DNA of 41,172 bases, taken from the IMG/VR virus record IMGVR_UViG_3300045988_010662, positions 1 through 41,172 of that record; one strand, given 5' to 3'. Shown here piece by piece: positions 22,121-38,900 of this stretch. Position 1 is the first letter of the stretch, and each line of letters begins with the position of its first letter. The DNA comes from a virus. Both the position numbers and the translations under genes were made by a program. Below the pieces are notes generated by a model. It saw nothing but the letters and a program-made list of their open reading frames with translations. It did not search any database and had not been told where the DNA came from.

Positions 22121-24436
22121 ATGCAGCCGATGTATATAGGACAAGTCGCATTTACTACAGGCGAGGTATCGCCAGATGTATCTAGTAGATTTGACCTTGA
22201 ACAATATAAAAGTGCATTGCTACTTGCTGAAAATGCAGTCATTAGACCTTATGGAGCGGTAGCACGTAGGCAAGGTTCACAGTTTATCGGATATGCTAAA
22301 TATAATGATAAGTCCGTTAGATTGTTTGAGTTTACCACTAACCGCAACAAATCATTCATGCTAGAGTTTGGACACCTATATATAAGGGTGTGGCGGAATG
22401 GCGAATATACCAATTTAGAAATTAATACACCATTTGAGGATGAAATCATCAATGATTTAAATATTATTCAAAGTGGCGATGTAATGTTCATCTGTAGCGG
22501 TAAATATCCTATCCATACACTATCTAGGTATAGTGATACAGACTGGAAATTAGATGTATACAAATTATCCGAGCAACCATACGAGGATATCAACACCGAT
22601 AATTCTCATACCTTAGTTGTTAATGGTGATACTGTTAAATCCACAAAAGACCTATTCACACAAGATATGGTTGGTAGTGTAGTACAAATTGCGTACTATA
22701 TTGAGGCGGTACATACACAAGTAAGTGGTAATGTTGTTGAAAAAAAAATAATACGTGGTTTTACAGGAACTTTTATTGAAAAGACATACAACAACATCAA
22801 TTATAATGTTGATAGCTATAGTACCGACACAGAACTATCTTGGAAGTTTACCACTCATGGCACATGGGAGGGTACAGTAAAAATACAGATTTCTAACAAC
22901 GATGGTCAAACGTGGAAAGACTACAGAACGTATACTTCTAAATCTGACTACAATGTTACAGATAGCGGTAAGATAGAGGCTGGAGCAAGGTTAAAATATA
23001 TCTCCGATATCCAAAAAGGTTCTGTGAATTGTGATCTATCCATTCTACCGTTCATGCAATACGGCGTAGTTGAGATTGTAAGCGTTGAAAATAGTAAGAC
23101 CGCAAAGGTTAATATCTTGAATGGTATTAAAGAGGGCGAGCCAAGTCATCAATGGAAGTTAGGGAGTTGGAATAAAGGTAAAGGTTATCCTAAATTATGT
23201 ACATTCTATCAAGATAGGTTCATTGTAGCTGCTACTGATAGTAAACCTAATTTTATTTGGTTTAGCCGTACTGGTGATTATCCGAACTTTGGTGTTGAAA
23301 AAGTAGGTGGTACTATCACAGATGATAGTGCAATCACATTGCCTGTTATCAATCGTAAGATGCACGAAATCAGACACCTTGTACCAGCTAATGACTTAAT
23401 CGTTCTAACTAGCGGTAATGAGTGGATAGTTGATGGGAGCAAGACTATTACACCTACTAACTGTTATTTGAAGACACAAACACAACGTGGTGCGCTAAAG
23501 TGTGAACCACATTTTATCGGTAACCGATGTGTATTCGTTCAAGAGCGTGGCGGTACTGTTCGTGATATGGGTTACTCTTACGATAGCGACAACTACACAG
23601 GGCAAGACCTTACATTGTTTGTTAAGAATTTGGTTAAAGGTCATACCACCATAACAAGTGCTTATGCACAAGACCCAGACTCAATCATTTACTATGTACG
23701 AGATGATGGACAGTTGAATTGCTTAACCTACATACCTGAACAAAAGGTATATGGATGGTCGCATTTCTTAACCAAAGGTAAATACAAATATGTAGAGAGT
23801 GTAGCTGAGGGCGAACAAGACACTATCTACTTTGTTATAGAACGCACTATTAATGGTGTAATCACTCAAGGCATCGAATGTAGTAAACCTTTATATGCCG
23901 ATGATGGTTCAGATGTATTCGTTGATTGTTTCATCAAGAAAACATTCAAAGAGAAAACAGACATAATCGAAGTACCTCATCTGATTGGTGAAAGTGTAGA
24001 TATAGTAACAGGAACAAAACAGATGCCATCTGTTGTAGTACCTGAAAGCGGAATTATCAAACTAACCGATAAGGTAAATGATATTACTGTAGGGTTACGA
24101 TTTGTAACACGCATTAAGCTACCTAGTATTGAGCAACAAATAAATGATGGAACATTACAATGTAGAATTGCTACTGTAACACGTTTAGCGTTGAGATTAT
24201 ATAAATCGTTTGGCGGTAAAGTTGGTAGAACCTTTGATGAAATGGATAGTCTAACTTTGAAATACAATGAATTATATACTGGTGATGTTGCAATCGTGCT
24301 ACCTAAAATTGCAAATACGATGAGTACAGATACATCAATTTGTATATTACACGATAAACCGTTCCCATTTAACTTGTTAGCGGTTACTAGAACCCTAGAA
24401 ATAGGCGGTGGTTTGGCAAATGTTCATGGAATGTAA
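22121..24436 (+). CDS. Tail tubular protein B / nozzle (gp12-like)
   Basis: 771 aa (T7 gp12 is 794 aa from memory). Assignment is by synteny. Confidence 0.5.
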   Translation: MQPMYIGQVAFTTGEVSPDVSSRFDLEQYKSALLLAENAVIRPYGAVARRQGSQFIGYAKYNDKSVRLFEFTTNRNKSFMLEFGHLYIRVWRNGEYTNLEINTPFEDEIINDLNIIQSGDVMFICSGKYPIHTLSRYSDTDWKLDVYKLSEQPYEDINTDNSHTLVVNGDTVKSTKDLFTQDMVGSVVQIAYYIEAVHTQVSGNVVEKKIIRGFTGTFIEKTYNNINYNVDSYSTDTELSWKFTTHGTWEGTVKIQISNNDGQTWKDYRTYTSKSDYNVTDSGKIEAGARLKYISDIQKGSVNCDLSILPFMQYGVVEIVSVENSKTAKVNILNGIKEGEPSHQWKLGSWNKGKGYPKLCTFYQDRFIVAATDSKPNFIWFSRTGDYPNFGVEKVGGTITDDSAITLPVINRKMHEIRHLVPANDLIVLTSGNEWIVDGSKTITPTNCYLKTQTQRGALKCEPHFIGNRCVFVQERGGTVRDMGYSYDSDNYTGQDLTLFVKNLVKGHTTITSAYAQDPDSIIYYVRDDGQLNCLTYIPEQKVYGWSHFLTKGKYKYVESVAEGEQDTIYFVIERTINGVITQGIECSKPLYADDGSDVFVDCFIKKTFKEKTDIIEVPHLIGESVDIVTGTKQMPSVVVPESGIIKLTDKVNDITVGLRFVTRIKLPSIEQQINDGTLQCRIATVTRLALRLYKSFGGKVGRTFDEMDSLTLKYNELYTGDVAIVLPKIANTMSTDTSICILHDKPFPFNLLAVTRTLEIGGGLANVHGM

Positions 24437-24908
24437 AATTAGCCGTTCTAAGCACGTTTCTTTAATTCGTGAGTTATATATCAACTTACGTTCGATAGAT
24501 GCCTTAGAGGTTAAATATATCAATCGGAAAAATTCAAACTATAATGAAAATGACTTTGTGAACGATATTCTTGGGGAAGATTATCAAAGTCGAATTGTTA
24601 CTGATAATGACAAGCCATTATGTGTGTATGGGGTATCAAAAATTGCACTTAATGGTATGCATTGTATTTATTTCTTGGGGAGCAAGGAATTTGAACGTAG
24701 TTTAACACTACAAAAACAATTCTTAAAAGTTAGTAGAAATATCATTGGGGAATGGTTAAAAACTAGGGAAGTACTTTTTAATTACATACATAAAGAAAAT
24801 CACCGCACCATTAGATGGCTAAAGTCTTTAGGTGCGGTTATTCATTACGATATTAACGATGGGGATATGGTATTATTCACATTGAGAAAGGGGGATGCGA
24901 ATGTGTAA
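24426..24908 (+). CDS. Internal virion protein A-like (gp13 slot)
   Basis: About 160 aa. Assignment by synteny. The start is ambiguous (24408, 24420 or 24426). Confidence 0.4.
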   Translation: MECKISRSKHVSLIRELYINLRSIDALEVKYINRKNSNYNENDFVNDILGEDYQSRIVTDNDKPLCVYGVSKIALNGMHCIYFLGSKEFERSLTLQKQFLKVSRNIIGEWLKTREVLFNYIHKENHRTIRWLKSLGAVIHYDINDGDMVLFTLRKGDANV

Positions 24909-25521
24909 CCCTATTGCATTAATGGCAGGTCAAATGGTTGCTCAATTATGGGGGCAACACCAACAAGGTAAGGCACAAGCTGCCATGTACAATCAACAAG
25001 CAAGGGTAGCAGAGGCTAACGCACGTATTAGTGATCGCAAGCAAGAACAGATTGCAGACCAAGCCTTGCAAGAGCGAGATAAAATGTCCGATAAGATGCG
25101 ACTTATCCAAGGGCAGAACGTAGCAGAAACTGGTGCAGGCGGTTTGGCTATGAGTGGTACACCATTACAACTTATGGCATCTAGCTATGACGAGTACAAC
25201 AAGGATATTCAAAACTGGGAAACTAACAAAAATAACAGTATCTACAATGAATATCTTAATGGTATGAACTACCGCAACGAGGCAAGCACCGCACGAGCAG
25301 CGGCAAGTAATGCTAAGAAACAAACTAGAATGGCTATGCTAGGCACGATATTAAGTGGTGCATCTAGTATCTATGGACTTAAAAGTCAATATGCTAGTAA
25401 TAGTGTAGGTAGTGGTAATAACTACTACACACCAGCTAGTGATGCACTAGAGGCTGCTGGTATGCCTAAAATGAAATTCGTAACTAAAGGTACTATCAGA
25501 AATAATAGGTGGGGTATCTAA
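24901..25521 (+). CDS. Internal virion/core protein (gp14 slot)
   Basis: 206 aa, Gln/Ala/Asn-rich with a hydrophobic C-terminal segment. AAGGGGG RBS 8 nt before ATG 24901. Confidence 0.45.
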   Translation: MCNPIALMAGQMVAQLWGQHQQGKAQAAMYNQQARVAEANARISDRKQEQIADQALQERDKMSDKMRLIQGQNVAETGAGGLAMSGTPLQLMASSYDEYNKDIQNWETNKNNSIYNEYLNGMNYRNEASTARAAASNAKKQTRMAMLGTILSGASSIYGLKSQYASNSVGSGNNYYTPASDALEAAGMPKMKFVTKGTIRNNRWGI

Positions 25522-27731
25522 TGAAGTTAATAGGCTATGATAGTAATCAACGCTTAAACACAATTAATGGCGGTGTACAAGCTAATGTAAATGAAATGGC
25601 TTATGGTGGCAACACGCAAGGCATGGATAACCTCACAAAAGCCATTGGTGATTTAGGCAACACAATGCTAACAATACAAAAGCAAAAGGAAATGACCGAT
25701 GTTGTGAATGCAACAAATGAGTATAACACCATGATGAATGATTGGCTATATAACCCTGATAATGGTGCTATGAACCGAAAGGGCGAAAATGCTTTGACTA
25801 TTCCGCTTGATTATCAAAATCAAGAGAAAAGAGCAAGGCAGCTTATATCCGAGAAGTATGGCTTTAAATTCAATGATGCGGTCAATGCCTTTAATAAAGT
25901 TGCAGATAATGATATGACCAATACAACAAACACAATCAATAAGTTTGTGCGTGGTCAATTTGAAGATAGTGCTATGAAAGCATTAGATATGAATGTGCAA
26001 AACATATCTAATAATGCGGTAGTAAATGCTAGTCCTGATGCATTCGATGATGCTATGAAACAAGTAAGCGGTAGTGTGGCAGCACAACTATCTAATCTTG
26101 GGTATGATGATAACACTATCCGATTACAAGTAAAGAAAGCGCAACAAAACATTGCTACAACCATGATTGAAAAGAAGATGGCTGATGATGATTTAGATGG
26201 TGCTAATAAGATTATCAATCAAGTTGCCATGTCAGGCTTAATCGATGAAGAAAAAATCATGGGATATCGTCAAAAGGTGCGCAATGCATCAATGGTATTA
26301 GCTACATCAGATGATAGCAAGATTGATGGTGTCATTGGTGAGTTTGACCCTAATGATCCTGACTTACTAACTAAAGTTACTGATAAGTTATTTACAAGTG
26401 GTTTTGGTAAAGTCGCTGGTGCTAGTGGTGGAAATGCAAGCGTTCAAGACCTTATGGATGCGGTTATGGGTCAAGAAAGTAGCGGTGATGCTGGAGCAGT
26501 TAATGGCAGAACTGGTGCTTATGGATTATTCCAAATATTACCTAGTAACTGGCCACAATGGAGTGAACAAGCTGGTATAGCTGGCGCAGACATGACAGAC
26601 CCTGAGGCACAAAAGAAAGTTGCAGCATATAAACTTGGTGAGTATGCAAAAGAGTATGGTGTAGAGGGTGCGTTTGCTGCTTGGTATGCTGGACCTGTAA
26701 ATGGTGCTAGATGGAGAGATGGTGCGCCTGATGCGGTTGATGGTGATGGTAACCATTATTCATGGGATGCTCCGCAAGGTGCTGGTGATGAGCCTAGTGT
26801 TCGTCAATACATACAAGAAGTTAAAGCAAAATTATTTGGTGGTGAAAAAGCTAGAGAAGAAACACCGGCAGAGGCACAAAAGCGAAAAGAAATCATTCAA
26901 CGCAACGTGGCAACACGATTACAAGTCATGGCTAAACGTAAAGCACAAATACTTGAAAATCAAAAAGTAGAGATTGAGCAACGTGTAGCAGCGGCGGTAA
27001 GAAATGGTGCAACCGATGTTGAAGTATTAAAGTTAAGGCAAGATTATGCAGAAACACATCCTGAATACCAAAGAGCAATGCAAGGTCAGTTAAACCAAGC
27101 ACAGATTTCTGTAAATAAAGCAGCGGCAAAAGCATTGCAAGCAAAAGAGGCGAACGTATTGGCGGTTAAAACCGCAATCGCAAATGGTCAATTCAAAAGC
27201 ATGGATGATTTAAATAACTTCATGGGGCAAATGGGTGTGTACTTTACACCACCACAACTTGCACAAATCAACCATGATTTTGACGAATACTCAAATGGTA
27301 CTGGAAAGTATTCTCCTGAAATGTCAGGTATGAAGAGTAGCATAGAAAACTTAGCTGGTAGAAAAATAGATGGTGTTGAATGGCAAGGTGTATCAACCGC
27401 AGTTTATCCTAAAGTACAAGAATTTAGAGAGAAACACGGCTATGATCCATCGCCTGCACAAATGGCACAATGGGGTGCTGATGCGGTAGCAGAACAAACA
27501 ATCGCATCTACAGAAACTGGTAAATATTGGGGTGTAGGTAAACGTGCTAACTTATTTGGTGGTAGAGGCGCTGCATTATCTTACACAAACGCACAACTAG
27601 CATCACAAGGTATGTATGGTTTATATAACACAACTGGTGCAGATGGTCAGCCATACTACGTTTATAAAGATGCTAGGGGCGAAGAATACACCATTACACC
27701 AGCAGAATTAGCTGAAAGGTTAGGTCAATAA
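25521..27731 (+). CDS. Internal virion protein with a lytic transglycosylase (SLT) domain (gp15 slot)
   Basis: The SLT signature LMDAVMGQESSGDAGAVNGRTGAYGLFQILPSNW ... AAWYAGP has its catalytic Glu codon at 26475-26477. The protein is 736 aa. Confidence 0.75.
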   Translation: MKLIGYDSNQRLNTINGGVQANVNEMAYGGNTQGMDNLTKAIGDLGNTMLTIQKQKEMTDVVNATNEYNTMMNDWLYNPDNGAMNRKGENALTIPLDYQNQEKRARQLISEKYGFKFNDAVNAFNKVADNDMTNTTNTINKFVRGQFEDSAMKALDMNVQNISNNAVVNASPDAFDDAMKQVSGSVAAQLSNLGYDDNTIRLQVKKAQQNIATTMIEKKMADDDLDGANKIINQVAMSGLIDEEKIMGYRQKVRNASMVLATSDDSKIDGVIGEFDPNDPDLLTKVTDKLFTSGFGKVAGASGGNASVQDLMDAVMGQESSGDAGAVNGRTGAYGLFQILPSNWPQWSEQAGIAGADMTDPEAQKKVAAYKLGEYAKEYGVEGAFAAWYAGPVNGARWRDGAPDAVDGDGNHYSWDAPQGAGDEPSVRQYIQEVKAKLFGGEKAREETPAEAQKRKEIIQRNVATRLQVMAKRKAQILENQKVEIEQRVAAAVRNGATDVEVLKLRQDYAETHPEYQRAMQGQLNQAQISVNKAAAKALQAKEANVLAVKTAIANGQFKSMDDLNNFMGQMGVYFTPPQLAQINHDFDEYSNGTGKYSPEMSGMKSSIENLAGRKIDGVEWQGVSTAVYPKVQEFREKHGYDPSPAQMAQWGADAVAEQTIASTETGKYWGVGKRANLFGGRGAALSYTNAQLASQGMYGLYNTTGADGQPYYVYKDARGEEYTITPAELAERLGQ

Positions 27732-30700
27732 TGAATAAGATTACACCTGAACAAGCGACAAAGGGTACATTTGGAATTAAATCAAATGCAAATGTAGGTT
27801 TTGTTGGTGGTGTTCAACAAGAAGTAACAGACAATTCATATAGTAAAGCTATAGGTAACGCAGTTAGTGGTATTAGTGATTGGGTAACGAAAGACCCATC
27901 AACCGCCACAGTCGATGTAAATGCAATGAACGCATTAACACAAACTGATGTTACACCGCAACAAAGCGAAAACTTTGTAAATAAAGCTGGTGAAATCTTA
28001 CAACCTGTAATGCATCGTGCAGAGCAAATCTATTTGTGGAATAAAGCAGACTGGGCGCAATCAGCATATGATAGTGGTGAGGCACTAGGTATTAGTCCTG
28101 ACATTATCATGGCTAGTGGTCAAGATGGTATTAGACGAGCAGAGGCAGCAGCAGCACAAATCAATAGAGGTAAAACTCTTAATGAAGTGTATGAGTTGTA
28201 CCCTGAATTAGTTGGTATCAATTATAAAAACTCCGCAGAGGCTATCACTACTCTTCAAAACCTACAATCTGTAAAAGATACACATGGTGTATGGGATAGC
28301 ATTCAACAAAATACATGGGCAATTAATGACCAAATCAAATTAGGCAAAGTTGGTATGGAGTTATCAACTGCTACTGATCCACAACGCATTCAAGAACTTA
28401 ATGACGAGGTAGAACGCTTACAATCTAATTTATCTAAATATCGTAAATCAGATGATAATAACGTATTAGAAAATGTAGTTGGTGCTACTGCTAGTCAAGT
28501 ATATATGATGGCTGCACACGCTATCATGGGTTCTAATCGTGCTGCAGAGGGTATGGCATTAGGTGCAGCGGCTGGTGTTGCTGCTACTGCACCATTTGGT
28601 GGTGAGGGGGCTATCCCCGGTGCATTGGTTGGTTTAAATACTGGTGTTCAAGTTGGTATGGCTGAACAAATGTATCAAATGTCTTTTGGTAACAAATACC
28701 TTGAACTCATTCAAAAACGAGATGCAAATGGAAATCAAGTATACTCTAATGAAGAGGCTAGAAAGTATGCTATGTCATACGCAGCTATTGATGCTGGTAT
28801 CGAATTTGTAGCAACTAAAGCTATAGGTAAAGGCATCAATAATGTTGCACCTAAATCAGCGTTAGCAAAAGTAATTACAAATGGAACTACAGATATTGCA
28901 GCAACCTTTGATAGAGGTATTGGAACAACTGTTGCACAGATGGCTAAAAACTCTATTAAAGCTGGTGTACCTGAACTCTTTGAAGAGGGCTTGCAAGATA
29001 TAAACGAAAAGGTACAACACAACCTAACACGCAAGGATAATGACCTAGAGGGTTATTATAGCGTAGGTGATATTGCTATAGGTTCATTAGATGCAATGAA
29101 ACAAGCATTGCCAGCGGTAATAGGTTTTGGTGCTATCGGTGGTGCAGTAGGTGGTGTACGTACTGCAAAGGCTTTCCGAGATTTCCAAAAGCTAACACCT
29201 GAACAACAACAAGCAGCAATCATCGCAGAGCAAAACCGCAATGGTGCAGTCATTATGGATAATGTTCGTAAGGATAGCACTACCAATAAAATCGCAAAAG
29301 AAAACCCTGAGTTGTACGGAAAAATCGTACAAGCGCAGGGCGATAAGGTTGGTGTATCAACTCAATATGTAGATGTAGCGGAATTAGTACAATCTGAAAA
29401 CGGACAACTTGCTATCCGTGATATGGTTGATAACGGCTTGGTAACACAAGAGGAAGTAAAAGCAGCTATCGAGGCTGATGCACCTGTTGAAATTCCTATT
29501 GGTAGCTATGCACAAGTATCTATGAACTTATCTGATGAAACAGTAGATGCATTGAAACAAACCTCATACTTTACACGTGGCGGTATGTCATTGGCTACAT
29601 TAGAACGTGCAAAACAAGAAGTAGATATTGCTAAATCTGTATTGAAAGACGATACATCAAAACGTGCGGAACGTATCAAAGATGATATTATCCGTAATGA
29701 ATTTGAGGGTGCAAGTGATATAGATCGTGAAGTACTTAACGAGGTACTATCTGACCCTACGAACATTAAACGTAATTTCAATAACTTATTGCATACGTTA
29801 AAAGAACAGTATAGAGAAAACTATGCTAGTGATTTTGACAATGCAGATAAATCTATAAATGATGCGGTAAGTACTGGTATTGAACCACAATGGTTAGTTG
29901 ATTATAAAGCTAACAACGGCGGTAAAGCACCACGTACCAATGCAGAACGTAGACGAGCAGCCTATGAGTATAGCCGAGCAACTACAACTGCTAGTTTAGA
30001 TGGTAATGCCGATGCACTAGCACAATCTGATGCACATTATGCAGATATGGAATATATGTTGATGCAAATCGAAAGTTTAGAGGCTATGAAAGATAAAGTC
30101 TTTGAATTGGCGAATAATGACATAGCATTACGGATGCAATTATCTAAAAGTGGATATGATGTATACAACGAAGTAGTTAAAGCTATTAGCGAAAGCACGA
30201 ATAGAAAACAACGTGAAACTGCAAAAGCAAATGCATTATTGATGGCACAACACGCTGATATAATGGCACAATATATGCGACAAATGGGCAAAGGCGGTTA
30301 TATCGCTATGGATTATTTCCGTGATAGCGTGCGTATCAACATGAATGCTAAATTAGGAGAAAAAGGCGGATATGCACAACCACTAAATGTTGATGTTGAC
30401 TTAAATCACAGATTACAAGTTGTTGATTTAACAAATCTTAAAACTAATCTGAAAACAGAAAAAGACATAATAGATTTATTTAAAAACACACCACCACAAG
30501 CGGTTATGATTGAGGATGGTAAGGTTATTGTTTTACCGCCTGATGATATTAATGGTATTAAACATATTCCATATGGTACGCAAAAAGGTAAAAAAATAGC
30601 AAATAAAAAAAGAAGAATTGTAGAAGATATTGCAAATATATTGCAACATAGTGTATTGATTGATAGCTCGCCTAATAATAAAATTGGTAGATCAAAATCT

Positions 30701-33700
30701 GGCATGAGTGCTAATCAACGTAAATCGCAAAATAGAAAAAATACTATTGTTAATTACCACAATTTACTATCGGCAATTCGTATTAATGGAAATTATTATG
30801 CAGTTAGATTTGTAGCAGAAGAAAAACAAGGGCATTTAACAGTATACCCAAGAACAGTTTATTTATACGATATAATTATGCAAAAAAGCAGTACTACTAG
30901 TCGCCCGACTCAGAGTGGCAATAGCCAAGCGGTCGGTCAAATGACCAGTAATACTGCTTTTGATACTATAAGTATAAAAGATATATTGAACGGGGTCAAG
31001 GACGGAAAAGGTGTTTTATATGTAGATAATAATGGAAATGGCAATTATTACACACAAACATATAATCAATCAGCATGGCATGGTTCACCACATGACTTTG
31101 ACACATTTGATTTAGGTGCTATTGGTACTGGTGAGGGTAATCAAGCACATGGTTGGGGTTTGTATTTTGCTAAGAAAAAATCAGTATCTAGGAATTATCA
31201 AAAGGAATTGTCTAAGCGATTAGGAACTACAAATCCAAAATTATTCAAAGTTGAAATTCCAGATGAAAAAACAATGCTTGATGAAGATAAATATTTCAAA
31301 GAGCAAAATAAAGATATTATTAACAAGATAGTATCAGCCGTTAATAATTTAGAAATCGATAAGCGAAAAGCTTTATTAGATCACTATAAAGAACATCCAG
31401 CTTATCCTGTTAATAAAGAGTATGAAAAAATACTAGGCAAAATACAGAGCATAAATCAAGATAGGGAATATATAACTGATGCTCTAGTAAACAATGTAAG
31501 TAAAATAAAAGAAAAAATTGCTAGAGAAGCTGCTGCTGAGTACGGATATAACTTTGACGAGTTAAAAGCAGATAATACATTTGAAATGGCTAAAAAGTTA
31601 ATAGGTGAAATTAATGAAAAGTTATCGGCACTAGAAAAAGAGAAAGAAGTTGAGGGTGCAAAAGAAAAAATAAAAGAAGATAAGATCTTGGAAAGTATCG
31701 GTGATACATTTACAAAAACACCATATACAGGAAGAGATGTTTATGTTGCATTGTCAAAAGCATTTGGCGGTGATAAAGGTGCATCTGAATTTTTAAACTC
31801 AACTGGTGTTAAGGGCATTACATATGATGGATATACAGACGGACGATGCTATGTAGTATTTGATGATAAGGCAATCAAAGTCATTGAAAAGTACAACCAA
31901 TCAATAAACGGCATGACCGAAATCATGAAAGATGGTGAACGCATTATCAGCATTTTCAAGACAGCTGATAGAAGTACATTCTTACACGAAATGGGTCATG
32001 TTTTCTTTGATGATATACAAAAATTAGCATCTATGGAAAACGCACCTGAGCAACTTGTAACAGATTGGAACAAGTTGAAAGAGTGGAGCGGTTGGGTTGA
32101 TGGTGAAAACGTAGACAATACGAAAGCACATGAAAAATTTGCACGAGGGTGGGAAAGCTACTTGCGAAGTGGTGAAGCACCAACAAGTGCATTGCAAAGA
32201 GTATTCCGTCAATTCTCCAAATGGCTGACATACATTTATCGTAGCGTTCAACGATTAGGTGGTGAAGTACCAACTGATATTAAAGATGTTATGGCACGTA
32301 TGATCGCAACCCAAGAGGATATTGAGGTATACGCAGAGCAACAACAATTAGAACAGTTTGAGAAAACTGAACTGTATAAGCAACTATCCGAACAAGACCA
32401 AGCACGGATGCAGTCTTACATAGCAGATGTTAAGGAAAAAGCAAAAGAACGTGTGATGCGAAAACTCATGAAAGAATTGGATAATCGACCAATTAAAGAA
32501 TGGGAAGAAGAAAAGGATGCTATTCAAATTGAAATAGAAAAACGATTGATTGAGCAATATCCTATATACAAAGAGCATCAACGATATAACGTGTTTGGTG
32601 AGGGTGCATTGAAAGATACACGGTACAACTCTATTGAAGAGTTGGAGAAAGTGGAAGTAGAGCAAACTGGTACTACATTTAACGATGCTATCAATCAAGA
32701 AATGGACAATGCGAAAGCAGAGTTTATGAGTGATAACAATGTAGGCAAAACCAACGAGCAAATCGCAGAAGAAATCTTGCTTAGTACCCAAGGTCAAATG
32801 AGATTAACCGAAGAAGAAAGTAAGATTATTCAAAAGTCTACTAATCGTGAACTAGCGAAGAACTGGGAGTTGTTAGAGCGTATTCGTAAACTAGACCCTA
32901 ACGCAGAAACTATTGATACAGAGTTAAGTGAAATCGAAAAAGAGGTTAAACCTACTAAGTACGATGAGTTAAAATCTGATAAGAAAAAAGTAGATGCTGC
33001 TTTGAGTGATACTACTAAGCAATTAGAAAAAGCAGAAGAACGTATCAAACGCTTACAGTATATGCTGAATAATCGCATCAATAATGTTCGTTCTATTCGA
33101 GGCGCTGGACTTGGTACAATTTCTGACTACATGAACCGAGCAAGAAAAGAATTAGGTGAGTTGCCTATATCTAATGCGATACAGTTTAAAACGTATCAGA
33201 ATAAAGCGGTAACTGCTGGCAAGAAAGCAGATAGAGCATTGGCAATCGGTGATGTTGATAAAGCACTTGGCTTTAAGCGTGAACAGATGCTACAACAAGC
33301 AAGGGCGAGAGTAGCGTTTGAAAACTTTGAAAAGTCCAAGAAGTTGCGATTGAAATTAAAACAACAATTACAACGCATGACTAGACCGAAGAACCCTATT
33401 GCTATTGAACCTAATATGCGTTATTTCTACGCACACATGGCATACCAAATGGGTTTAACTAAGTACGATGGACTAGCACCTACAGATGGTTTTGATATGA
33501 ACACAGTATTATCTGCACTAGATGTGGATGCACTTATTCTTAACCAACAATCAATGGTTCAATTAGAACCTTGGATAGCTGAAATGTTCTATTCTAAAAC
33601 ACCTAAATCATTTAAATCTATCACAATGAACGAGTTAGAAACTTTGGAAGAGTTAATGACTGGGATGTACAAGAATGGTAGAAATGAGTATGAGGGTACA

Positions 33701-35902
33701 ACCATCTTAAACGATGAGGGTAAAAGCATATCGTTTGAAAATGCAGTACAAGAAATCATTGGTGAGGCTACAGAAACATTTGGTGGTGCAACTGGTGATG
33801 TGTTTAACAAACTCAATAACCAAACTAAAACAGATGCAGTAAGTGGTAAACTATATGGTTTCCACTTAGCGTTGATGAAAGTTGAAACATTCCTAAGACG
33901 AATGGGTGGCGGTAAAAATGGGTTTGCGGTTAAATATATCTATGACCCAATCAGTAGAGCAACGCAAGCGTTCAATGAACGTAAGGAAACATCAATGCGT
34001 AGATTGGCCAAGGATGTAGGAATATATTCCAAACGTGAACTATTTGATATGCGTAATGACCACTTATACACAGTTGGTGAGTTACACGGCTTAACCAAAG
34101 AGCAACTTATCATGATTGCCCTTAACTGGGGTACAGAAAGCAATAGACAACGTGTAATGGAAACTACAAAGGCGAATGAAGTCGATATTGAACGTGCATT
34201 CCAAGAGCATATGACAGATAAAGACTGGGAATTTGTTATTCGTACATGGGATCATATCAATTCATTCTTTGAAGAGCGTAGTAGAGTACAAGAGGAACTT
34301 TACGGAAACCCATTAAAGAAAGTAGAGGGTTTATCTTTCACTATCGGTGGTAGAAATATTGAGGGGCAATATTTCCCAATCGTGTATAACCCTAAAGTAA
34401 ATGCATCTGTTAGCGACAATCAAGTTGAAGATATTGCTAAAACTATGGTAAGTAGTAATGCAGTATGGGGAACTGGTATGAGCGCCACTAAAAGCCGGTT
34501 AGATGTAGTAAAAGATAAATCTCTATTGCTTGATTTTGATGTAATTCCTAATGCTATCACAGAGGCTATTAACCACGTTACAATGCGTAAAGCGGTAACT
34601 GATGTTAATAAGCTAATCTCTAATCGTGAACTACAAAACTATATTGTTGATAAGTTTGGTGCTGATACCTACCAATTCTTGCGTACATGGGTTCGTGATA
34701 ACTGGCAAGATGAGGCAGCGAAAACAAATGATATTGATAGACTTATTCTTACATTGAAGAAAAATACATCAACGGCGGTAATGGCTGGGCGTGTATCTGT
34801 AGCATTGCAAAATGCGTTGAACTTACCAGTTGCGTTCTATCGTATCGGTGTAGGTAAGACCATTAGAGCCATCAATCATGCTGGTATTGGTTTTTACGGA
34901 CACGGCACAACCACTTATAACAACACTAGAGATTTTGTATTAGGTCAATCAATCTTCATGCGTGAGCGCATCCAGACATTAGATAAAGACTTGAAACAAG
35001 GGTTATCTATTGCTGGTAAAGGCTTACGTTTAGGTGATACAAATATTGGTGGTTATAAGGTTGAACAACTTGCTGATATTCGTGATGATATAAATCAAAT
35101 GGGGTTCAGGTTACTTACGGAAACAGACTTTGCATTATCCATCCCAGTATGGAAATTTGCATATGATCAAAAGCAAGCTGAACTCTTTGGTAAAGAGGGT
35201 GTAAGTGCTGAATGGGTAGAGCAACAATCTGTTGAGGCTGGTGACAGAGCAGTACGTGATATATTTGGTAGCGGTGATACAAAGGATGCTGCTGCTATTC
35301 AACGTTCACGTTCTACATTCACTCAATTATTCGTTCCGTTCTATTCCTACGCTAATACACTTTATAACATTATCACAGAGGGTAACTATGCACGTAAGGA
35401 TAACGGCGATTATGCAAGGTTCGTTAAAATGCTATGGTGGACATTGATTTCACAGGCTATCGGTATGATGGCTTACAAAGCCTTAACGAATGGCGATGAT
35501 GACAAACCAGAAGATTTAGCTAAGTCATTTATCGAAGAGTTAGTTTCACAAGGTACTATGGGTGTACCAATCATCCGTGATATGTCAAATATGGCTATGA
35601 AATACATTCTAGGTGAAAAGGTATTCAATAAAGGTAATAGCGTTATGGCTTTGAGTATCGTTGAGAAATTCTACGATGTTGGTAATGCTATTATCAACGA
35701 TAAAAAAGATGGTGTTGATTTAGGTAGAAGTCTTAGTCAGTTGGCGAACAGGGCAACTGGTTTTAGTGATACTGTAACAGATGGACTATGGACATTGGCT
35801 AAATATGCGTTCACCGATACCGATGCAGCCTTAGAAGATGTAATCATGGCTATTGTATTTGACCGTAGATTAAAAACTAAAAAAGACAAAAAGAAACATT
35901 GA
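27731..35902 (+). CDS. Giant (2,723 aa) ejected core / polyvalent protein with ART-like and zincin-like modules (gp16 slot)
   Basis: One uninterrupted ORF. It has Gly/Ala-rich hydrophobic segments near the N-terminus, WHGS at 31076-31087, GLYFAKKKSVSRNY from about 31157, and HEMGH at 31985-31999. Confidence 0.8.
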   Translation: MNKITPEQATKGTFGIKSNANVGFVGGVQQEVTDNSYSKAIGNAVSGISDWVTKDPSTATVDVNAMNALTQTDVTPQQSENFVNKAGEILQPVMHRAEQIYLWNKADWAQSAYDSGEALGISPDIIMASGQDGIRRAEAAAAQINRGKTLNEVYELYPELVGINYKNSAEAITTLQNLQSVKDTHGVWDSIQQNTWAINDQIKLGKVGMELSTATDPQRIQELNDEVERLQSNLSKYRKSDDNNVLENVVGATASQVYMMAAHAIMGSNRAAEGMALGAAAGVAATAPFGGEGAIPGALVGLNTGVQVGMAEQMYQMSFGNKYLELIQKRDANGNQVYSNEEARKYAMSYAAIDAGIEFVATKAIGKGINNVAPKSALAKVITNGTTDIAATFDRGIGTTVAQMAKNSIKAGVPELFEEGLQDINEKVQHNLTRKDNDLEGYYSVGDIAIGSLDAMKQALPAVIGFGAIGGAVGGVRTAKAFRDFQKLTPEQQQAAIIAEQNRNGAVIMDNVRKDSTTNKIAKENPELYGKIVQAQGDKVGVSTQYVDVAELVQSENGQLAIRDMVDNGLVTQEEVKAAIEADAPVEIPIGSYAQVSMNLSDETVDALKQTSYFTRGGMSLATLERAKQEVDIAKSVLKDDTSKRAERIKDDIIRNEFEGASDIDREVLNEVLSDPTNIKRNFNNLLHTLKEQYRENYASDFDNADKSINDAVSTGIEPQWLVDYKANNGGKAPRTNAERRRAAYEYSRATTTASLDGNADALAQSDAHYADMEYMLMQIESLEAMKDKVFELANNDIALRMQLSKSGYDVYNEVVKAISESTNRKQRETAKANALLMAQHADIMAQYMRQMGKGGYIAMDYFRDSVRINMNAKLGEKGGYAQPLNVDVDLNHRLQVVDLTNLKTNLKTEKDIIDLFKNTPPQAVMIEDGKVIVLPPDDINGIKHIPYGTQKGKKIANKKRRIVEDIANILQHSVLIDSSPNNKIGRSKSGMSANQRKSQNRKNTIVNYHNLLSAIRINGNYYAVRFVAEEKQGHLTVYPRTVYLYDIIMQKSSTTSRPTQSGNSQAVGQMTSNTAFDTISIKDILNGVKDGKGVLYVDNNGNGNYYTQTYNQSAWHGSPHDFDTFDLGAIGTGEGNQAHGWGLYFAKKKSVSRNYQKELSKRLGTTNPKLFKVEIPDEKTMLDEDKYFKEQNKDIINKIVSAVNNLEIDKRKALLDHYKEHPAYPVNKEYEKILGKIQSINQDREYITDALVNNVSKIKEKIAREAAAEYGYNFDELKADNTFEMAKKLIGEINEKLSALEKEKEVEGAKEKIKEDKILESIGDTFTKTPYTGRDVYVALSKAFGGDKGASEFLNSTGVKGITYDGYTDGRCYVVFDDKAIKVIEKYNQSINGMTEIMKDGERIISIFKTADRSTFLHEMGHVFFDDIQKLASMENAPEQLVTDWNKLKEWSGWVDGENVDNTKAHEKFARGWESYLRSGEAPTSALQRVFRQFSKWLTYIYRSVQRLGGEVPTDIKDVMARMIATQEDIEVYAEQQQLEQFEKTELYKQLSEQDQARMQSYIADVKEKAKERVMRKLMKELDNRPIKEWEEEKDAIQIEIEKRLIEQYPIYKEHQRYNVFGEGALKDTRYNSIEELEKVEVEQTGTTFNDAINQEMDNAKAEFMSDNNVGKTNEQIAEEILLSTQGQMRLTEEESKIIQKSTNRELAKNWELLERIRKLDPNAETIDTELSEIEKEVKPTKYDELKSDKKKVDAALSDTTKQLEKAEERIKRLQYMLNNRINNVRSIRGAGLGTISDYMNRARKELGELPISNAIQFKTYQNKAVTAGKKADRALAIGDVDKALGFKREQMLQQARARVAFENFEKSKKLRLKLKQQLQRMTRPKNPIAIEPNMRYFYAHMAYQMGLTKYDGLAPTDGFDMNTVLSALDVDALILNQQSMVQLEPWIAEMFYSKTPKSFKSITMNELETLEELMTGMYKNGRNEYEGTTILNDEGKSISFENAVQEIIGEATETFGGATGDVFNKLNNQTKTDAVSGKLYGFHLALMKVETFLRRMGGGKNGFAVKYIYDPISRATQAFNERKETSMRRLAKDVGIYSKRELFDMRNDHLYTVGELHGLTKEQLIMIALNWGTESNRQRVMETTKANEVDIERAFQEHMTDKDWEFVIRTWDHINSFFEERSRVQEELYGNPLKKVEGLSFTIGGRNIEGQYFPIVYNPKVNASVSDNQVEDIAKTMVSSNAVWGTGMSATKSRLDVVKDKSLLLDFDVIPNAITEAINHVTMRKAVTDVNKLISNRELQNYIVDKFGADTYQFLRTWVRDNWQDEAAKTNDIDRLILTLKKNTSTAVMAGRVSVALQNALNLPVAFYRIGVGKTIRAINHAGIGFYGHGTTTYNNTRDFVLGQSIFMRERIQTLDKDLKQGLSIAGKGLRLGDTNIGGYKVEQLADIRDDINQMGFRLLTETDFALSIPVWKFAYDQKQAELFGKEGVSAEWVEQQSVEAGDRAVRDIFGSGDTKDAAAIQRSRSTFTQLFVPFYSYANTLYNIITEGNYARKDNGDYARFVKMLWWTLISQAIGMMAYKALTNGDDDKPEDLAKSFIEELVSQGTMGVPIIRDMSNMAMKYILGEKVFNKGNSVMALSIVEKFYDVGNAIINDKKDGVDLGRSLSQLANRATGFSDTVTDGLWTLAKYAFTDTDAALEDVIMAIVFDRRLKTKKDKKKH

Positions 35903-35940: not shown

Positions 35941-35962
35941 TATATTGAAAGGGGATGTTAAA

Positions 35963-38900
35963 TTGACACCAGAAGTACTTAGACCATCTGTAACGTATCA
36001 ATGCGATGGGGTAAATAAGCGTTTTATTTTCCCTTACGATTTCGTGCAAATCGAGGATATTCGCTTAATCGTGGTTGACCTTGACGGAACAGAGGAAGTG
36101 CAAACACACAACATCGCATATGATGAAATGGATAAGGCTATTATTTATCCGAATGACGGCGATGCATTGGCCAATGGTAAGAAAGTTATCCTTGAACGTG
36201 TTACTCCGATTTCACAAGATACAGATTTACCTGATGAGTACCCATTCGAGAATATCGAACATTCAACAGATAAAATCATTATGATTTTGCAAGAAATGAA
36301 AGCGGAACTTAACCGCAGTTTAAAGGTAAGACCACATAGCGATGAGAACCCTGACGAGTTAGTGAAATTGATTGTTGAGCGTTCTGTAAAAGCTGCAGAA
36401 GATGCAGTAAAAGCGGTAGCAACGATTGAGGCTAAAACCGATAAGGTGGCTACTGATTTAGATACTATCAGTCAGTTAAACGCAGAAATTAAAGCATTGG
36501 CAGAACGTGCGGAAACTGCTGCTGAGAAAGCTGAGCAAGTATCGTTCCCCAACGCAAAAGGTTTGGTTACAAAAGCTGATGCGGATGCAAAGTATCAAAC
36601 TAAAGATAGTTTAACAGGTATCGTATCAGTAAAAGACTTTGGAGCGGTTGGTGATGGCGTAGCTGACGATACCGCAGCGTTCAAGAAAGCTAATAACAAC
36701 TTAGAAAACAAAATCCTATTTGTGCCTAGTGGTATTTATAAGTTAAATGAACACATCACATTTAACACAGTAGGTTCTGTAATGGATATGGGTACATATT
36801 CCAATATTAAGCCGTTCTATCCTACTGAAACTCCAATGCTAAAAGGTGCTAATAATATTGCGTTTGTAAAAAATATCCAGTATAGCGAAGAGGTCAACCA
36901 ATGCCAAGGGTTTACCTATAATGATAAAAAGAATGTATTCGTGTTAGCTTGTATCAATGGCTATGGCACAACTCAAATCTTATATGAATTGAATGCTGAT
37001 ACATTGGAAATCGTAGGCACATACAAATATAATGACCCAGACAAAATGGGGCATTGCAACACTATGTGCTACAACAAAAACACCAATAAGATTTATTTGG
37101 CCAATGGATTAAAAAATGGTAACAACCTAACAGTACTTGATGCGGATACAATGCAATATGAACGCACTATTACATTAAATGAACGTGTATTTAATATTGC
37201 CTATGACCATATTACACGCACTTATGCAAGCATCGTACCTATTAGCGGTAATAAACGTGTTCGTCAAATTAACTTATACAACGATGATTTCGTCAAAATG
37301 AAATCGTATCAAGTTGACTACCAATACGATGATTTCAATAACAATGGTGCGTTCATGCTAAATGGTTGCATCATGAGTGCTACGTTGGGTAGCCTTGTAG
37401 AATGCACTCCATTTGGTACAGTTAAACAAATCATCGAGATTAACCCTAAGACTGAAATTGAAGATATTGCATATTACAATGGCAAATTCTATTTTGCGGT
37501 TTTGACTATGCAATCTAATAAGCGACATAAAGTAGATATTTATGTTGGTGATCCAAGCCGTGAATATGAAAACTCTATCAACACGCAAAAATTAACTAGC
37601 CTTGATTACCTAAAATTAACTGGTGGCAATGTAACTGGTGCAATTAAAATGGCTAACAATACATTGATTGAGGGTTTCAAGCCTGACGGTCATGGTGTTG
37701 GCATGGCTAAAGTATCTGCAAATGGCAACGTAGAACTTGGCGATGCATCTGTTAATACATTCATTAAGGGTAAAGAGTTTAAATATTATGATGGTACAGA
37801 TAGCTATACAGTACTAACCACAAAACACTATGGAACTGCAATCTACAACAAAAACCAAATTGATGATGCGTTTGTTAAGAAAGGTGATGTAGATGCTATC
37901 TCTAATGGCGCTAATAAACAAATGACTATCACACATCCACTATTTGCAGATAGTGCTATAGAAAGTGGTGATTGTACCTTTGTTGGTGTAGATGGCAAAT
38001 GGTTTATTATCGATAGTTTACAGAAAACAGATGCTAACTTAAATTCCATTCTTAAATGCATGACAGATAATAACATTGAGAAGTTTGAGTTTGGCTTTGT
38101 ATCACATTATCATAACGACCATATTGGGAATTTTGCAGAACTCATCAAGCGTGGCAAAATCGCTAAAATGTATTTACCTAACCCTGATAAGACCGAAGTA
38201 ATTGGTAGCTATGGTATGACCGCACAAGTACTCAATACGATTGCTAATGGTATTAAGGCGGAATGTACTGCTAAGAGCGTTCCAATAGAAACTATCGAGC
38301 CTAAGACAATCGATTTCAATGGCGCATCCATCACGTTCTATAACTGTAGTGATGAAGATTATGCGTATTATAAGTCAATCAACAATGATGATTACAATAA
38401 CTTATCCGCTTGTTTAGAAATAAACTATCTAAACCGCACTGCAATATTTGAGGGTGATAGTAATTATCACGCTATGGAACGAAATGCAATGCGTAACCCA
38501 GCTAATGTTGATTATTTAAAATCTAATCATCATGGCATTTCGCAAGTACCTATTTCATACCGCAAGTTGAACCCTAGAGATGTAATGATTACTGCTACAC
38601 GAACTTTTGGTAGAGAGAATTTGTTTGTATCAAACTATCAAGCTACATTCTTACAAATGGGGTGTAATTTGTATTTGTTAGGCGATCAGATTGTGCCACC
38701 TAAAATTACTTACTATGGAAACGGACATATCGAATACAATAGGGAACTGTTAAGAGATGGTACTGCTGGTCAAGCAACATCATTAGAAATCTATGTAGAT
38801 AGAAATTACACAGGCTCACTAAAAACTGGTGATGCACATTCTCCATTTACACATTTAGCGGATGCAGTACGTTTTATCAACAACACTAAGCACGCTATTG

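What the first reader, a model, noticed from the sequence alone, without database searches (positions are those of the whole stretch)
31060..31870. PARP-like (H-Y-type) ADP-ribosyltransferase signature inside the ejected giant protein
Residues 1116-1156 read WHGSPHDFDTFDLGAIGTGEGNQAHGWGLYFAKKKSVSRNY. From memory, human PARP1 has WHGS (His862) followed about 30 residues later by GIYFADMVSKSANY (Tyr896, Ser904, Tyr907). The spacing Y-F-A-x3-S-x-S-x-N-Y is the same in both, and these residues form the nicotinamide pocket.

After a coiled-coil insertion of about 200 aa, the protein continues GVKGITYDGYTDGRCYVVFDDKAIKV. This looks like the final ART strand (PARP1 NEYIVYD). In my hand alignment the catalytic Glu position is occupied by Cys1373. 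The domain could therefore be a mono-ART-like variant, an NAD-binding or NAD-cleaving domain, or simply misaligned by me.

A virion-delivered ART would act on host or defence targets at the moment of DNA entry.
Basis: partly seen in the sequence, partly recalled or inferred. Interest (0 to 1): 0.85.

Follow-up and report, generated by a model that had tools for sequence, protein, structure and literature searches.

The report
Phage-injected ADP-ribosyltransferase domain, cysteine variant
The motif is real and belongs to ART-PolyVal, a known but biochemically untested family of ADP-ribosyltransferase domains, here sitting inside the giant internal virion protein of a Veillonella prophage; the one unusual feature is that the position of PARP's catalytic glutamate holds the protein's only cysteine.

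Summary
Residues 1116-1156 and 1359-1384 of the 2,723-aa ORF (27731-35902, +) read as reported. They form one ART-PolyVal domain (Pfam PF18760), split by a helical insert of about 100 aa that is poorly conserved.

- **Profile match:** with the insert removed, the domain scores 37.5 bits against a cut-off of 31.2.
- **Fold:** an AlphaFold model gives confident ART strands. It matches annotated viral ART-PolyVal models (E down to 9e-12) and, remotely, tankyrase, ParT and RES.
- **Family size:** about 19,500 clusters at 50% identity. The family was described computationally in 2017. I found no experimental study.
- **Context:** a temperate Veillonella podovirus. The gene sits where T7 has gp16, after homologues of gp13 and gp14 and a protein with an SLT domain. 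Delivery on ejection is therefore plausible but inferred.
- **Modularity:** the ART and the cassette upstream (LPD3 here, MuF_C in relatives) are swappable modules in a conserved scaffold.
- **The twist:** the position equivalent to PARP's glutamate is Asn in about 87% of the family and Cys in this clade. Cys1373 is the only cysteine in 2,723 residues, and this holds in six of eight relatives.

Verdict: a new member of a known kind, of moderate interest.

The parts
27731..35902 (+). Giant 2,723-aa polyvalent / internal-virion-type protein that carries the ART domain
   Evidence: ORF list and translation. It sits after homologues of T7 gp13 and gp14 and a protein with an SLT domain. The C-terminal half matches PHROG 9880 and large proteins of BPP-1-like podoviruses.
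29102..29161 (+). The only strongly hydrophobic segment (aa 458-477, QALPAVIGFGAIGGAVGGVR). It may insert into the membrane.
   Evidence: Kyte-Doolittle scan. The function is inferred.
30551..30832 (+). LPD3 domain (aa 941-1034), inside the hypervariable cassette at aa ~900-1100
   Evidence: Pfam PF18798 scores 30.1 bits (cut-off 27) when the segment is scanned alone, and 21.4 bits in the whole protein. Veillonella relatives carry MuF_C here instead.
31064..31402 (+). ART-PolyVal N-terminal half (aa 1112-1224): strand 1 with His1117, strand 2 with Tyr1145, a helix with Tyr1156, strand 3, and conserved helices
   Evidence: Pfam PF18760. AF2 pLDDT is 82-97. H, G, F, F, G, G, G, G, Y and Y are invariant in the family alignment.
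31079..31081 (+). His1117 codon (CAT): strand-1 His of the H-Y-D configuration
31163..31165 (+). Tyr1145 codon (TAT): strand-2 Tyr in GLYFA
31196..31198 (+). Tyr1156 codon: the second invariant Tyr, in SRNY. It aligns with the last Tyr of tankyrase SKSNQY and PARP1 SKSANY.
31403..31702 (+). Clade-variable helical insert (aa ~1225-1324) that splits the ART domain
   Evidence: AF2 pLDDT is 55-69 and all helical. Identity to relatives other than L003 is 13-23%. Removing aa 1193-1330 raises the Pfam score above its cut-off.
31703..31900 (+). ART-PolyVal C-terminal half (aa 1325-1390): two helices, then strands 4 (GITYDG), 5 (GRCYVV) and 6 (KVIEKY)
   Evidence: AF2 pLDDT is 84-97. The Pfam profile is covered to position 136 of 140. 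G1359, Y1365, V1375 and F1377 are invariant and D1378 is conserved in 90% or more.
31847..31849 (+). Cys1373 codon (TGC): the position collinear with PARP's catalytic Glu, and the only cysteine in the 2,723-aa protein
31862..31864 (+). Asp1378 codon: the family's conserved acidic residue, probably the 'D in strand 5' of Iyer et al. 2017
31928..32170 (+). Putative zincin-like metallopeptidase segment (aa ~1400-1480): HEMGH at 1419-1423, and a downstream helix HEKFARGWE with E1468 and E1475
   Evidence: Motif-level evidence only. There was no hit in Pfam or in PDB sequences. The segment is nearly identical in all Veillonella relatives. A homologue, P0003, also has an HExxH motif about 80 residues after its ART domain.
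24408..27731 (+). Upstream ejection-module genes: gp13-like (24408-24908), gp14-like (24895-25521), and a 740-aa protein with an SLT lytic transglycosylase domain (25509-27731)
   Evidence: Pfam PF11090 scores 29.1 (cut-off 25), PF24072 scores 32.3 (cut-off 27), and PF01464 scores 46.4 (cut-off 21.3).

Best explanation
Residues ~1112-1390 of the giant protein form an ART-PolyVal domain: an ADP-ribosyltransferase fold of the H-Y class, remotely related to PARP, tankyrase, diphtheria/cholix toxin and ParT. A variable helical insert of about 100 aa splits it.

It is one swappable effector module in a 'polyvalent' internal virion protein of a temperate, T7/BPP-1-like podovirus of Veillonella.

The proposed mechanism is inferred, not shown:
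1. The giant protein is packaged in the capsid core together with the gp14-like and SLT proteins.
2. It is ejected through the tail at infection, and its effector part reaches the cytoplasm with the leading DNA.
3. The adjacent HExxH segment may cut the effector free.
4. The ART domain binds NAD+ in the pocket lined by His1117, Gly1118, Tyr1145 and Tyr1156, and transfers a single ADP-ribose to a host target. That target is most likely a protein of transcription, translation or defence, by analogy with T4 Alt.

The PARP-type Glu is absent, so poly-ADP-ribosylation is not expected. Catalysis would depend on Asp1378, on Cys1373, or on the substrate.

My confidence by step: ART-PolyVal membership about 0.95; virion delivery about 0.7; real NAD+-dependent enzyme activity about 0.6.
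For: - **Profile:** Pfam ART-PolyVal scores 29.4 bits on the native segment. With the insert excised it scores 37.5 bits (cut-off 31.2) and covers profile positions 10-136 of 140.
- **Homologues:** 175 proteins, most carrying PF18760, with a near-invariant [WY]HGSPHDFDxF...IGTGEGxQAxGxGLYFA...Y motif.
- **Family size:** 19,524 representative clusters at E<=1e-3, many in proteins of 2,000-7,000 aa with several copies.
- **Fold:** the AF2 model has core pLDDT 82-97 and the six expected strands.
- **Foldseek, viral models:** 35 viral hits at E<=1e-3, the named ones being ART-PolyVal or LPD proteins.
- **Foldseek, solved structures:** PDB hits 2-20 for the query model, and the top 10 for the compact homologue P0003, are all ART-superfamily enzymes. 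They include tankyrase-2 (E=7e-3, prob 0.99), ParT, RES, MbcT, cholix toxin and PARP1/2.
- **Partner domains:** LPD3 upstream and HEMGH downstream, as described for polyvalent proteins (PMC5512222).
- **Synteny:** T7 gp13, gp14 and SLT homologues lie upstream.
- **Selection:** dN/dS is 0.08-0.11 for the ART core against the V. parvula prophage L003.
- **Cys1373:** it is the sole Cys in a protein otherwise purged of cysteine, and this is conserved across relatives.
Against: - No member of ART-PolyVal has been tested biochemically in any paper I could find.
- The canonical catalytic Glu is missing. Both candidate third residues vary in some relatives that keep His and Tyr: L010 has Ala and Asn, L008 has Cys and Asn.
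- Matches to solved ART structures never reach E<1e-3. The PARP Pfam model scores only 17.6 bits against a cut-off of 26.7.
- I could not inspect model coordinates, so the pocket geometry is unverified.
- Packaging and ejection rest on gene order alone. No Pfam family for T7 gp15 or gp16 matched the giant protein.
- The metallopeptidase rests on a motif only.
Confidence: 0.62

Rival explanations
1. It is an active NAD+-consuming enzyme, but not a protein mono-ART. It could be an NAD+ glycohydrolase or phosphorylase that lowers or reshapes host NAD+ at entry. Or it could ADP-ribosylate nucleic acid (as DarT does) or a small molecule.
For: - The catalytic Glu is replaced by Asn or Cys across the family.
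- Among the structural neighbours are the RES and MbcT toxins, which degrade NAD+ (my own knowledge).
- The domain would travel with the leading DNA end.
Against: - Iyer et al. group the family with protein-modifying H-Y clades: PARP, cholix/diphtheria toxin and Gig2.
- The H-Y-Y pocket resembles tankyrase, not RES, which is of the R-S-E type.
- Nothing in the data points to a nucleic-acid-binding surface.
Confidence: 0.2
2. It is a pseudo-enzyme: an ART fold kept as a structural, NAD-binding or target-binding module of the ejection protein, with no catalysis.
For: - There is no canonical Glu.
- Relatives exist with a lost His (P0036; the first domain of P0058) or with both third-residue candidates replaced (L010).
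- Large inserts are tolerated.
Against: - The NAD-pocket residues H, G, Y and Y are invariant across the 29 trimmed family sequences aligned here, and the same motif recurs in the roughly 180 domains surveyed.
- The core is under purifying selection, while the insert and the upstream cassette vary freely.
- A single Cys is kept at the active-site position of a protein purged of cysteine.
Confidence: 0.15
3. The resemblance to PARP is chance similarity inside a low-complexity or coiled-coil structural protein.
For: Direct comparisons with PARP or PDB sequences are not significant on their own.
Against: There are significant profile matches, homologue matches and structure matches to the ART-PolyVal family.
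Confidence: 0.01

Closest known systems
ART-PolyVal (Pfam PF18760; Tox-ART-HYD2-like ART of polyvalent proteins, Iyer et al. 2017, PMC5512222), prototyped by the ART fused to the N4-like vRNAP of Roseovarius Plymouth podovirus 1
   Same: It has the same motifs, fold and H...Y...D configuration. It sits in a giant phage protein encoded with structural genes, with LPD and HExxH neighbours, and is predicted to be injected with the DNA.
   Different: - The host scaffold occupies the T7 gp16 position and has no vRNAP.
- A helical insert of about 100 aa pushes the native sequence just below Pfam's cut-off.
- This sub-clade has HGWG in place of YGHG, a short loop between strands 4 and 5, and Cys in place of the family's Asn before strand 5.
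PARP / tankyrase catalytic domain (H-Y-E ARTs, Pfam PF00644)
   Same: The HGS motif, the GxGxYFA...S..NY motif and the strand order are collinear. Tankyrase-2 is the best solved-structure match for the compact homologue.
   Different: - It does not reach the PARP cut-off (17.6 against 26.7 bits).
- The catalytic Glu is replaced by Cys, or by Asn in most of the family.
- There is no helical regulatory domain.
- Poly-ADP-ribosylation is not expected.
Phage T4 Alt (virion-packaged R-S-E ART that modifies host RNA polymerase on injection)
   Same: The working model is the same: an ART carried in the capsid and delivered with the DNA to reprogram the host.
   Different: It belongs to a different ART clade (R-S-E, Alt/VIP2). 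T4 is a myovirus and Alt is a stand-alone protein. Alt's activity has been shown by experiment; here nothing has.
T7 gp14-gp15-gp16 ejectosome proteins
   Same: The gene order gp13-gp14-(SLT protein)-giant protein-tail fibre is the same, and the neighbouring protein has a lytic transglycosylase domain.
   Different: The giant protein has no detectable sequence match to gp15 or gp16. It is twice the size of gp16 and carries effector cassettes.
ParT, RES and MbcT toxins (minimal bacterial ART-fold toxins)
   Same: They are among the best structural neighbours.
   Different: They are toxin-antitoxin toxins with other active-site residues and targets, and the match is remote (E of 0.05 or more).

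Membership tests
ART-PolyVal (PF18760) | Match to the Pfam profile at or above the gathering score of 31.2 bits | tested here: met
   The native segment scores 29.4 bits, just below the cut-off, and covers only profile positions 10-94. With aa 1193-1330 excised it scores 37.5 bits over positions 10-136 of 140. The shortfall is caused by the insert. The excised construct is artificial.
ART-PolyVal (PF18760) | Active-site configuration of His in strand 1, Tyr in strand 2 and Asp in strand 5 (Iyer et al. 2017) | tested here: met
   His1117, Tyr1145 and Asp1378 are present at the invariant or near-invariant columns, on or next to the predicted strands. Equating the paper's 'D' with D1378 is my inference: it is the only conserved acidic residue there.
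ART-PolyVal (PF18760) | ART fold (split beta-sheet core) | tested here: met
   The AF2 model has a confident core. Foldseek against viral models annotated ART-PolyVal gives E=9e-12 to 1e-4. PDB neighbours are ART enzymes but only at E of 7e-3 or more.
ART-PolyVal (PF18760) | Located in a multidomain polyvalent protein of a phage or conjugative element, with LPD, MuF or MPTase partner domains | tested here: met
   LPD3 lies upstream. Relatives have MuF_C in the same slot. An HEMGH motif lies downstream. The gene is inside the phage structural module.
ART-PolyVal (PF18760) | NAD+-dependent ADP-ribosyl transfer | not testable with these tools
   This needs biochemistry. I found no report for any family member.
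PARP catalytic domain (PF00644), H-Y-E clade | Match to the Pfam profile at or above the gathering score of 26.7 bits | tested here: not met
   14.8 bits on the native segment and 17.6 bits with the insert excised.
PARP catalytic domain (PF00644), H-Y-E clade | Catalytic Glu at the start of the strand after the acceptor loop | tested here: not met
   The collinear position holds Cys1373. In the family it is Asn in ~87% and Cys in ~11%. The equivalence rests on strand order and sequence collinearity, not on superposed coordinates.
T7-type ejection (internal core) proteins | Gene position downstream of gp13 and gp14 homologues and upstream of the tail fibre | tested here: met
   Pfam T7 Gp13 and T7_gp14 hits are above their cut-offs, an SLT protein follows, then the giant ORF, then a tail-fibre-like ORF.
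T7-type ejection (internal core) proteins | Sequence homology to T7 gp15 or gp16 | tested here: not met
   A whole-protein Pfam scan at E<=1 found no such family. The C-terminal half matches only PHROG 9880 (unknown function) and large proteins of BPP-1-like podoviruses.
T7-type ejection (internal core) proteins | Physical presence in the virion and ejection into the host | not testable with these tools
   This needs virion proteomics or cryo-EM.
Zincin-like MPTase of polyvalent proteins | HExxH helix plus a downstream Glu-bearing helix, recognised by a profile | tested here: inconclusive
   HEMGH (1419-1423) and HEKFARGWE (1467-1475) are present and conserved in relatives. No profile or PDB sequence hit was found.

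The most novel reading that the evidence does not exclude
Cys1373 is a working active-site residue of a thiol-dependent variant of the ART fold.

One possibility is that it acts as a nucleophile or as the site of self-ADP-ribosylation, giving an S-linked ADP-ribose. Another is that it acts as a redox gate: the enzyme stays silent in the virion and periplasm and switches on only in the reducing cytoplasm after ejection.

That would explain why this is the single cysteine tolerated in a 2,723-residue protein purged of cysteine. It would also give a first mechanistic handle on a family of about 20,000 clusters that has never been characterised.
Probability: 0.2. Interest if true: 0.7.

Novelty: new member of a known kind. 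Interest (0 to 1): 0.38.

Why it matters
ART-PolyVal is one of the commonest predicted enzyme domains in proteins that phages and conjugative elements inject into cells. The profile search found about 19,500 clusters at 50% identity. I found no experiment on any member, so its target, its chemistry and even its third catalytic residue are unknown.

This locus would make a convenient test case:
- **Host:** a culturable human commensal. V. parvula DFI.7.83 carries a prophage whose ART region is 89% identical.
- **Natural controls:** relatives swap the ART insert and the upstream cassette.
- **A sharp mutational target:** the sole cysteine sits at the position of PARP's catalytic Glu.

As a discovery, though, it is an expected member of a curated family, not a new kind of system.

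Tried and rejected
- **PDB sequence searches.** phmmer of the insert-excised domain found nothing. A family profile gave only non-significant tankyrase and PARP12 alignments.
It aligned only the Tyr896 region and not the C-terminal strands, so it could not settle the Glu equivalence.
- **Foldseek top PDB hit for the query model.** It was a cyanophage A4 pre-ejectosome chain (E=6.6e-3). With rmsd 18 Å, TM 0.32 and no mention of ADP-ribosylation in the paper, I treat it as similarity of helical bundles, not an ART match.
- **The HEMGH region.** It had no hit in Pfam or in PDB sequences. A homologue search returned only fragments of close relatives. In one search no hit was longer than about 545 aa, so giant proteins may be missing from that search or present only as fragments.
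- **Megablast of the 24-kb structural region against phage genomes** found no match.
- **dN/dS against relatives other than L003** was saturated and is not used.
- **P0058's SEFVVFE motif.** I first took it as an ART-PolyVal member with a canonical Glu. It belongs to a second ART domain in the same protein, where the precomputed Pfam list also shows PF13151, so I use it only as a loose analogy.
- **Model coordinates** are not exposed by the tools, so the His/Tyr/Cys/Asp pocket geometry could not be measured.
Full report
**1. The observation**

The window encodes a 2,723-aa ORF at 27731-35902 on the + strand.
- WHGSPHDFDTFDLGAIGTGEGNQAHGWGLYFAKKKSVSRNY is aa 1116-1156.
- GVKGITYDGYTDGRCYVVFDDKAIKV begins at aa 1359, with Cys at 1373 (codons read).
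- No other ORF of 60 aa or more overlaps the region on either strand.

**2. What it is**

*Profile evidence.* Pfam finds ART-PolyVal (PF18760) on the native segment at 29.4 bits, E=1.5e-6. That is just under the 31.2-bit cut-off, and only profile positions 10-94 of 140 are covered. After I removed aa 1193-1330, the same model scored 37.5 bits (E=5e-9) over positions 10-136. So the domain is complete but split by an insert. The PARP model (PF00644) stays below its cut-off, at 17.6 against 26.7 bits.

*Homologues.* A search of 5.8 billion proteins gave 175 hits, most with precomputed PF18760. They share a near-invariant [WY]HGSPHDFDxF...IGTGEGxQAxGxGLYFA...VAxxY motif. In a trimmed 29-sequence alignment the invariant columns are H1117, G1118, F1123, F1126, G1134, G1136, G1141, G1143, Y1145, Y1156, G1359, Y1365, V1375 and F1377. 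D1378 is conserved in 90% or more.

*Family size.* A profile search of 1.84 billion cluster representatives found 19,524 proteins at E<=1e-3 and 11,766 at E<=1e-30. Many are 2,000-7,000 aa long with up to eight copies of the domain.

**3. Structure**

An AlphaFold2 model of aa 1095-1395, built on 55 aligned sequences, has mean pLDDT 78.5. pLDDT is 82-97 for aa ~1115-1224 and ~1325-1384, and 55-69 for aa ~1225-1324.

The predicted strands are:

| Strand (aa) | Sequence or key residue |
|---|---|
| 1112-1119 | His1117 |
| 1144-1147 | Tyr1145 |
| 1170-1177 | |
| 1182-1184 | |
| 1362-1367 | GITYDG |
| 1371-1376 | GRCYVV |
| 1383-1388 | KVIEKY |

*Foldseek against predicted viral structures* gave 35 hits at E<=1e-3, the best at 9e-12. 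They include proteins named 'PolyVal ADP-Ribosyltransferase', 'ART-PolyVal-like domain-containing protein' and 'Large polyvalent protein associated domain-containing protein'.

*Foldseek against the PDB* gave no hit at E<=1e-3. Ranks 2-20 are nevertheless all ART-superfamily enzymes: ParT, tankyrase-1/2, MbcT, RES toxin and PARP1.

*A compact homologue.* P0003 comes from the same Cys clade, is about 50% identical in the core and lacks the long insert. Its model gave tankyrase-2 at E=7.4e-3 (prob 0.99, 222 aligned columns), followed by ParT, cholix toxin and RES.

*Sequence alignments to PARPs.* The family profile aligns to tankyrase-2 exactly at HGSP and GxGIYFAEN...Y, though at E of about 1.5.

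The fold assignment is therefore solid. The link to solved ARTs is remote, which fits a distinct family within Pfam's set of ADP-ribosyltransferase families (it is listed among them in PMC7955679).

**4. The third catalytic residue**

Iyer et al. (PMC5512222) define the family by His in strand 1, Tyr in strand 2 and Asp in strand 5, and group it with Tox-ART-HYD2. The only conserved acid near strand 5 is D1378, in VVFDD.

By strand order, PARP1 NEYIVYD-(5 aa)-LKYLLKLKF lines up with RCYVVFD-(4 aa)-KVIEKY. This is inference, because I could not inspect coordinates.

I surveyed 178 recognisable domains from the sequences retrieved here:
- The Glu-equivalent position is Asn in about 87%, Cys in about 11%, and rarely Gly or Ala.
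- The +5 position is Asp in about 94%.

The family as a whole therefore lacks a PARP-type Glu, and this clade replaces the family's Asn with Cys. Going from AAY to TGY needs two base changes.

**5. The sole cysteine**

- Cys1373 is the only cysteine in 2,723 residues.
- The other 21 ORFs of 150 aa or more in the window hold 1.12% Cys (81 of 7,210), so about 30 would be expected. The Poisson probability of one or fewer is about 1e-12 (my calculation).
- Six of eight Veillonella relatives have exactly one Cys, at the same motif. L008 has that Cys plus one more. L010, whose motif is GVAYVIFND, has none.
- Across the 139 best-scoring representative proteins retrieved, Cys is 0.10% of 297,344 residues and the median is zero. 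In Cys-clade giants with two ART copies, two of the three to five cysteines are the motif Cys.
- The neighbouring gp14-like and SLT proteins have one and zero Cys.

I read the depletion as selection on proteins that must be threaded unfolded through a channel and an oxidising compartment. That is inference. I read the retained Cys as functionally required. That too is inference, and a harmless buried residue is the alternative.

**6. Context and delivery**

*The phage.* The window is a temperate phage:
- An integrase lies at 739-1821 on the - strand.
- ERF and Gp157 are among the early genes.
- The structural module is T7-like: terminase, portal, major capsid protein and tail proteins.
- Next come gp13-like and gp14-like genes and a 740-aa SLT protein, all above their Pfam cut-offs, then the giant ORF and a 1,252-aa tail-fibre-like ORF.

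*The host.* It is Veillonella. A V. parvula DFI.7.83 contig carries a region 89% identical to the ART region. Seven further loci are 41-59% identical: five are labelled Veillonella (one V. fallax strain and four MAGs), one is a MAG labelled uncultured Streptococcus, and one is an unclassified MAG. Other relatives lie next to bacterial genes and an integrase.

*The scaffold.* The C-terminal 800 aa match large proteins of BPP-1-like and other podoviruses at about 24% identity. Only two of the 46 phage records that share this scaffold also share part of the ART region. One hydrophobic segment, aa 458-477, could insert into a membrane. Packaging and ejection are thus supported by synteny only.

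**7. Modularity**

Identity along the protein against seven relatives shows three zones:

| Region (aa) | Identity to relatives |
|---|---|
| Scaffold, 1-900 and 1401-2723 | mostly 45-100% (17-48% over the first ~300 aa in five of the seven) |
| Cassette, 901-1100 | 14-27%, meaning it has been replaced |
| ART region, 1101-1400 | core conserved; insert 13-23% except in L003 |

- The cassette is LPD3 here (30.1 bits, cut-off 27) and MuF_C in four relatives (E=1e-14 to 1e-23).
- Against L004, the scaffold between about aa 400 and 2723 is mostly 80-100% identical, while the cassette and ART are 15-55% identical.
- Against L003, the ART is 85-94% identical, while the scaffold is 50-70% identical.
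- The ART core has dN/dS of 0.08-0.11 against L003.

This is the cassette shuffling expected of polyvalent proteins. It also shows the ART is kept under purifying selection.

**8. The downstream peptidase motif**

Directly after the ART come HEMGH (1419-1423) and HEKFARGWE (1467-1475). Both are nearly invariant in relatives. Iyer et al. describe zincin-like metallopeptidases as the commonest domain in polyvalent proteins and propose that they cut the effectors free. Here the assignment rests on the motif only.

**9. Comparison with what is known, and verdict**

This is a member of ART-PolyVal in a phage polyvalent protein, which is the situation described in 2017. It is not a PARP-family member: both the profile cut-off and the Glu fail. 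It most probably works like T4 Alt, a virion-delivered mono-ART, but no step has been tested for any family member in the literature I could search.

What is new:
- The host and scaffold: a Veillonella podovirus, with the gene at the gp16 position.
- The insert that hides the domain from Pfam's cut-off.
- The Cys-for-Asn sub-clade, with its sole cysteine.

Novelty: new member of a known kind. Interest: about 0.38.

Noticed in passing
window 27731-35902; loci L003-L010; proteins P0125-P0263: Proteins that carry ART-PolyVal are almost free of cysteine: 0.10% over 297,344 residues in 139 representatives, with a median of zero. The gp14-like and SLT proteins of this phage have one and zero Cys, against 1.1% in the other ORFs of 150 aa or more. 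This may be a general signature of proteins threaded through phage tails or secretion channels.
   Followed up: partly
window 35945-39703 (+): The 1,252-aa tail-fibre-like protein combines a pectate-lyase-like domain (PF12708, 32 bits) with a metallo-beta-lactamase-fold hit (PF00753, 25.8 bits against a cut-off of 22.7, aa 674-745). That is an unusual pairing for a receptor-binding or depolymerase protein.
   Followed up: no
window ~30430-31030 (aa ~900-1100) versus L003-L010: The cassette just upstream of the ART has been replaced by a non-homologous one. It is LPD3 in the window and MuF_C (PF18819) in the Veillonella relatives, while the flanking scaffold can be close to 100% identical (L004).
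   Followed up: yes
model of window aa 1095-1395 versus PDB 9k3a_B: The best PDB Foldseek hit for the query model was a chain of the cyanophage A4 pre-ejectosome (E=6.6e-3, 302 columns, rmsd 18 Å, TM 0.32). It is probably generic similarity of helical bundles. Even so, it is curious that another podovirus ejection protein ranks first.
   Followed up: partly
P0058 (521 aa, metagenomic): This protein has two ART domains in tandem. The first is a Cys-clade ART-PolyVal that has lost its His (YAGSP..., RCFVIFNP). The second is compact and has a canonical-looking H-Y-E layout (YHGT..., GKGFYFT, SEFVVFE); the protein's precomputed Pfam list shows PF13151 as well as PF18760.
   Followed up: partly
L001 and L002 (GCA_015473165.1, GCA_015473145.1): In these assemblies the homologous giant gene is broken into many ORFs of 50-400 aa, although the fragments are 82-92% identical to the window. 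The likely cause is frameshift errors in the assemblies rather than real pseudogenes.
   Followed up: no
L010 (uncultured Veillonella sp. UMGS8), ART motif region: This relative keeps the His/Tyr pocket motifs but has Ala in place of Cys1373 and Asn in place of Asp1378 (GVAYVIFND), and has no cysteine at all. It may be a naturally inactive or mechanistically different version, which would make it a useful control.
   Followed up: partly
window 9718-10329 (+): A 203-aa ORF matches only a short stretch of the C-5 cytosine DNA methylase profile (PF00145, positions 57-85 of 324). It may be a truncated or divergent methylase.
   Followed up: no
one search hit list: No hit in the first large homologue search was longer than about 545 aa, although the family is full of proteins of 2,000-7,000 aa. 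Giant proteins seem to be missing from that search or present only as fragments, and this limited the search on the HEMGH region.
   Followed up: no
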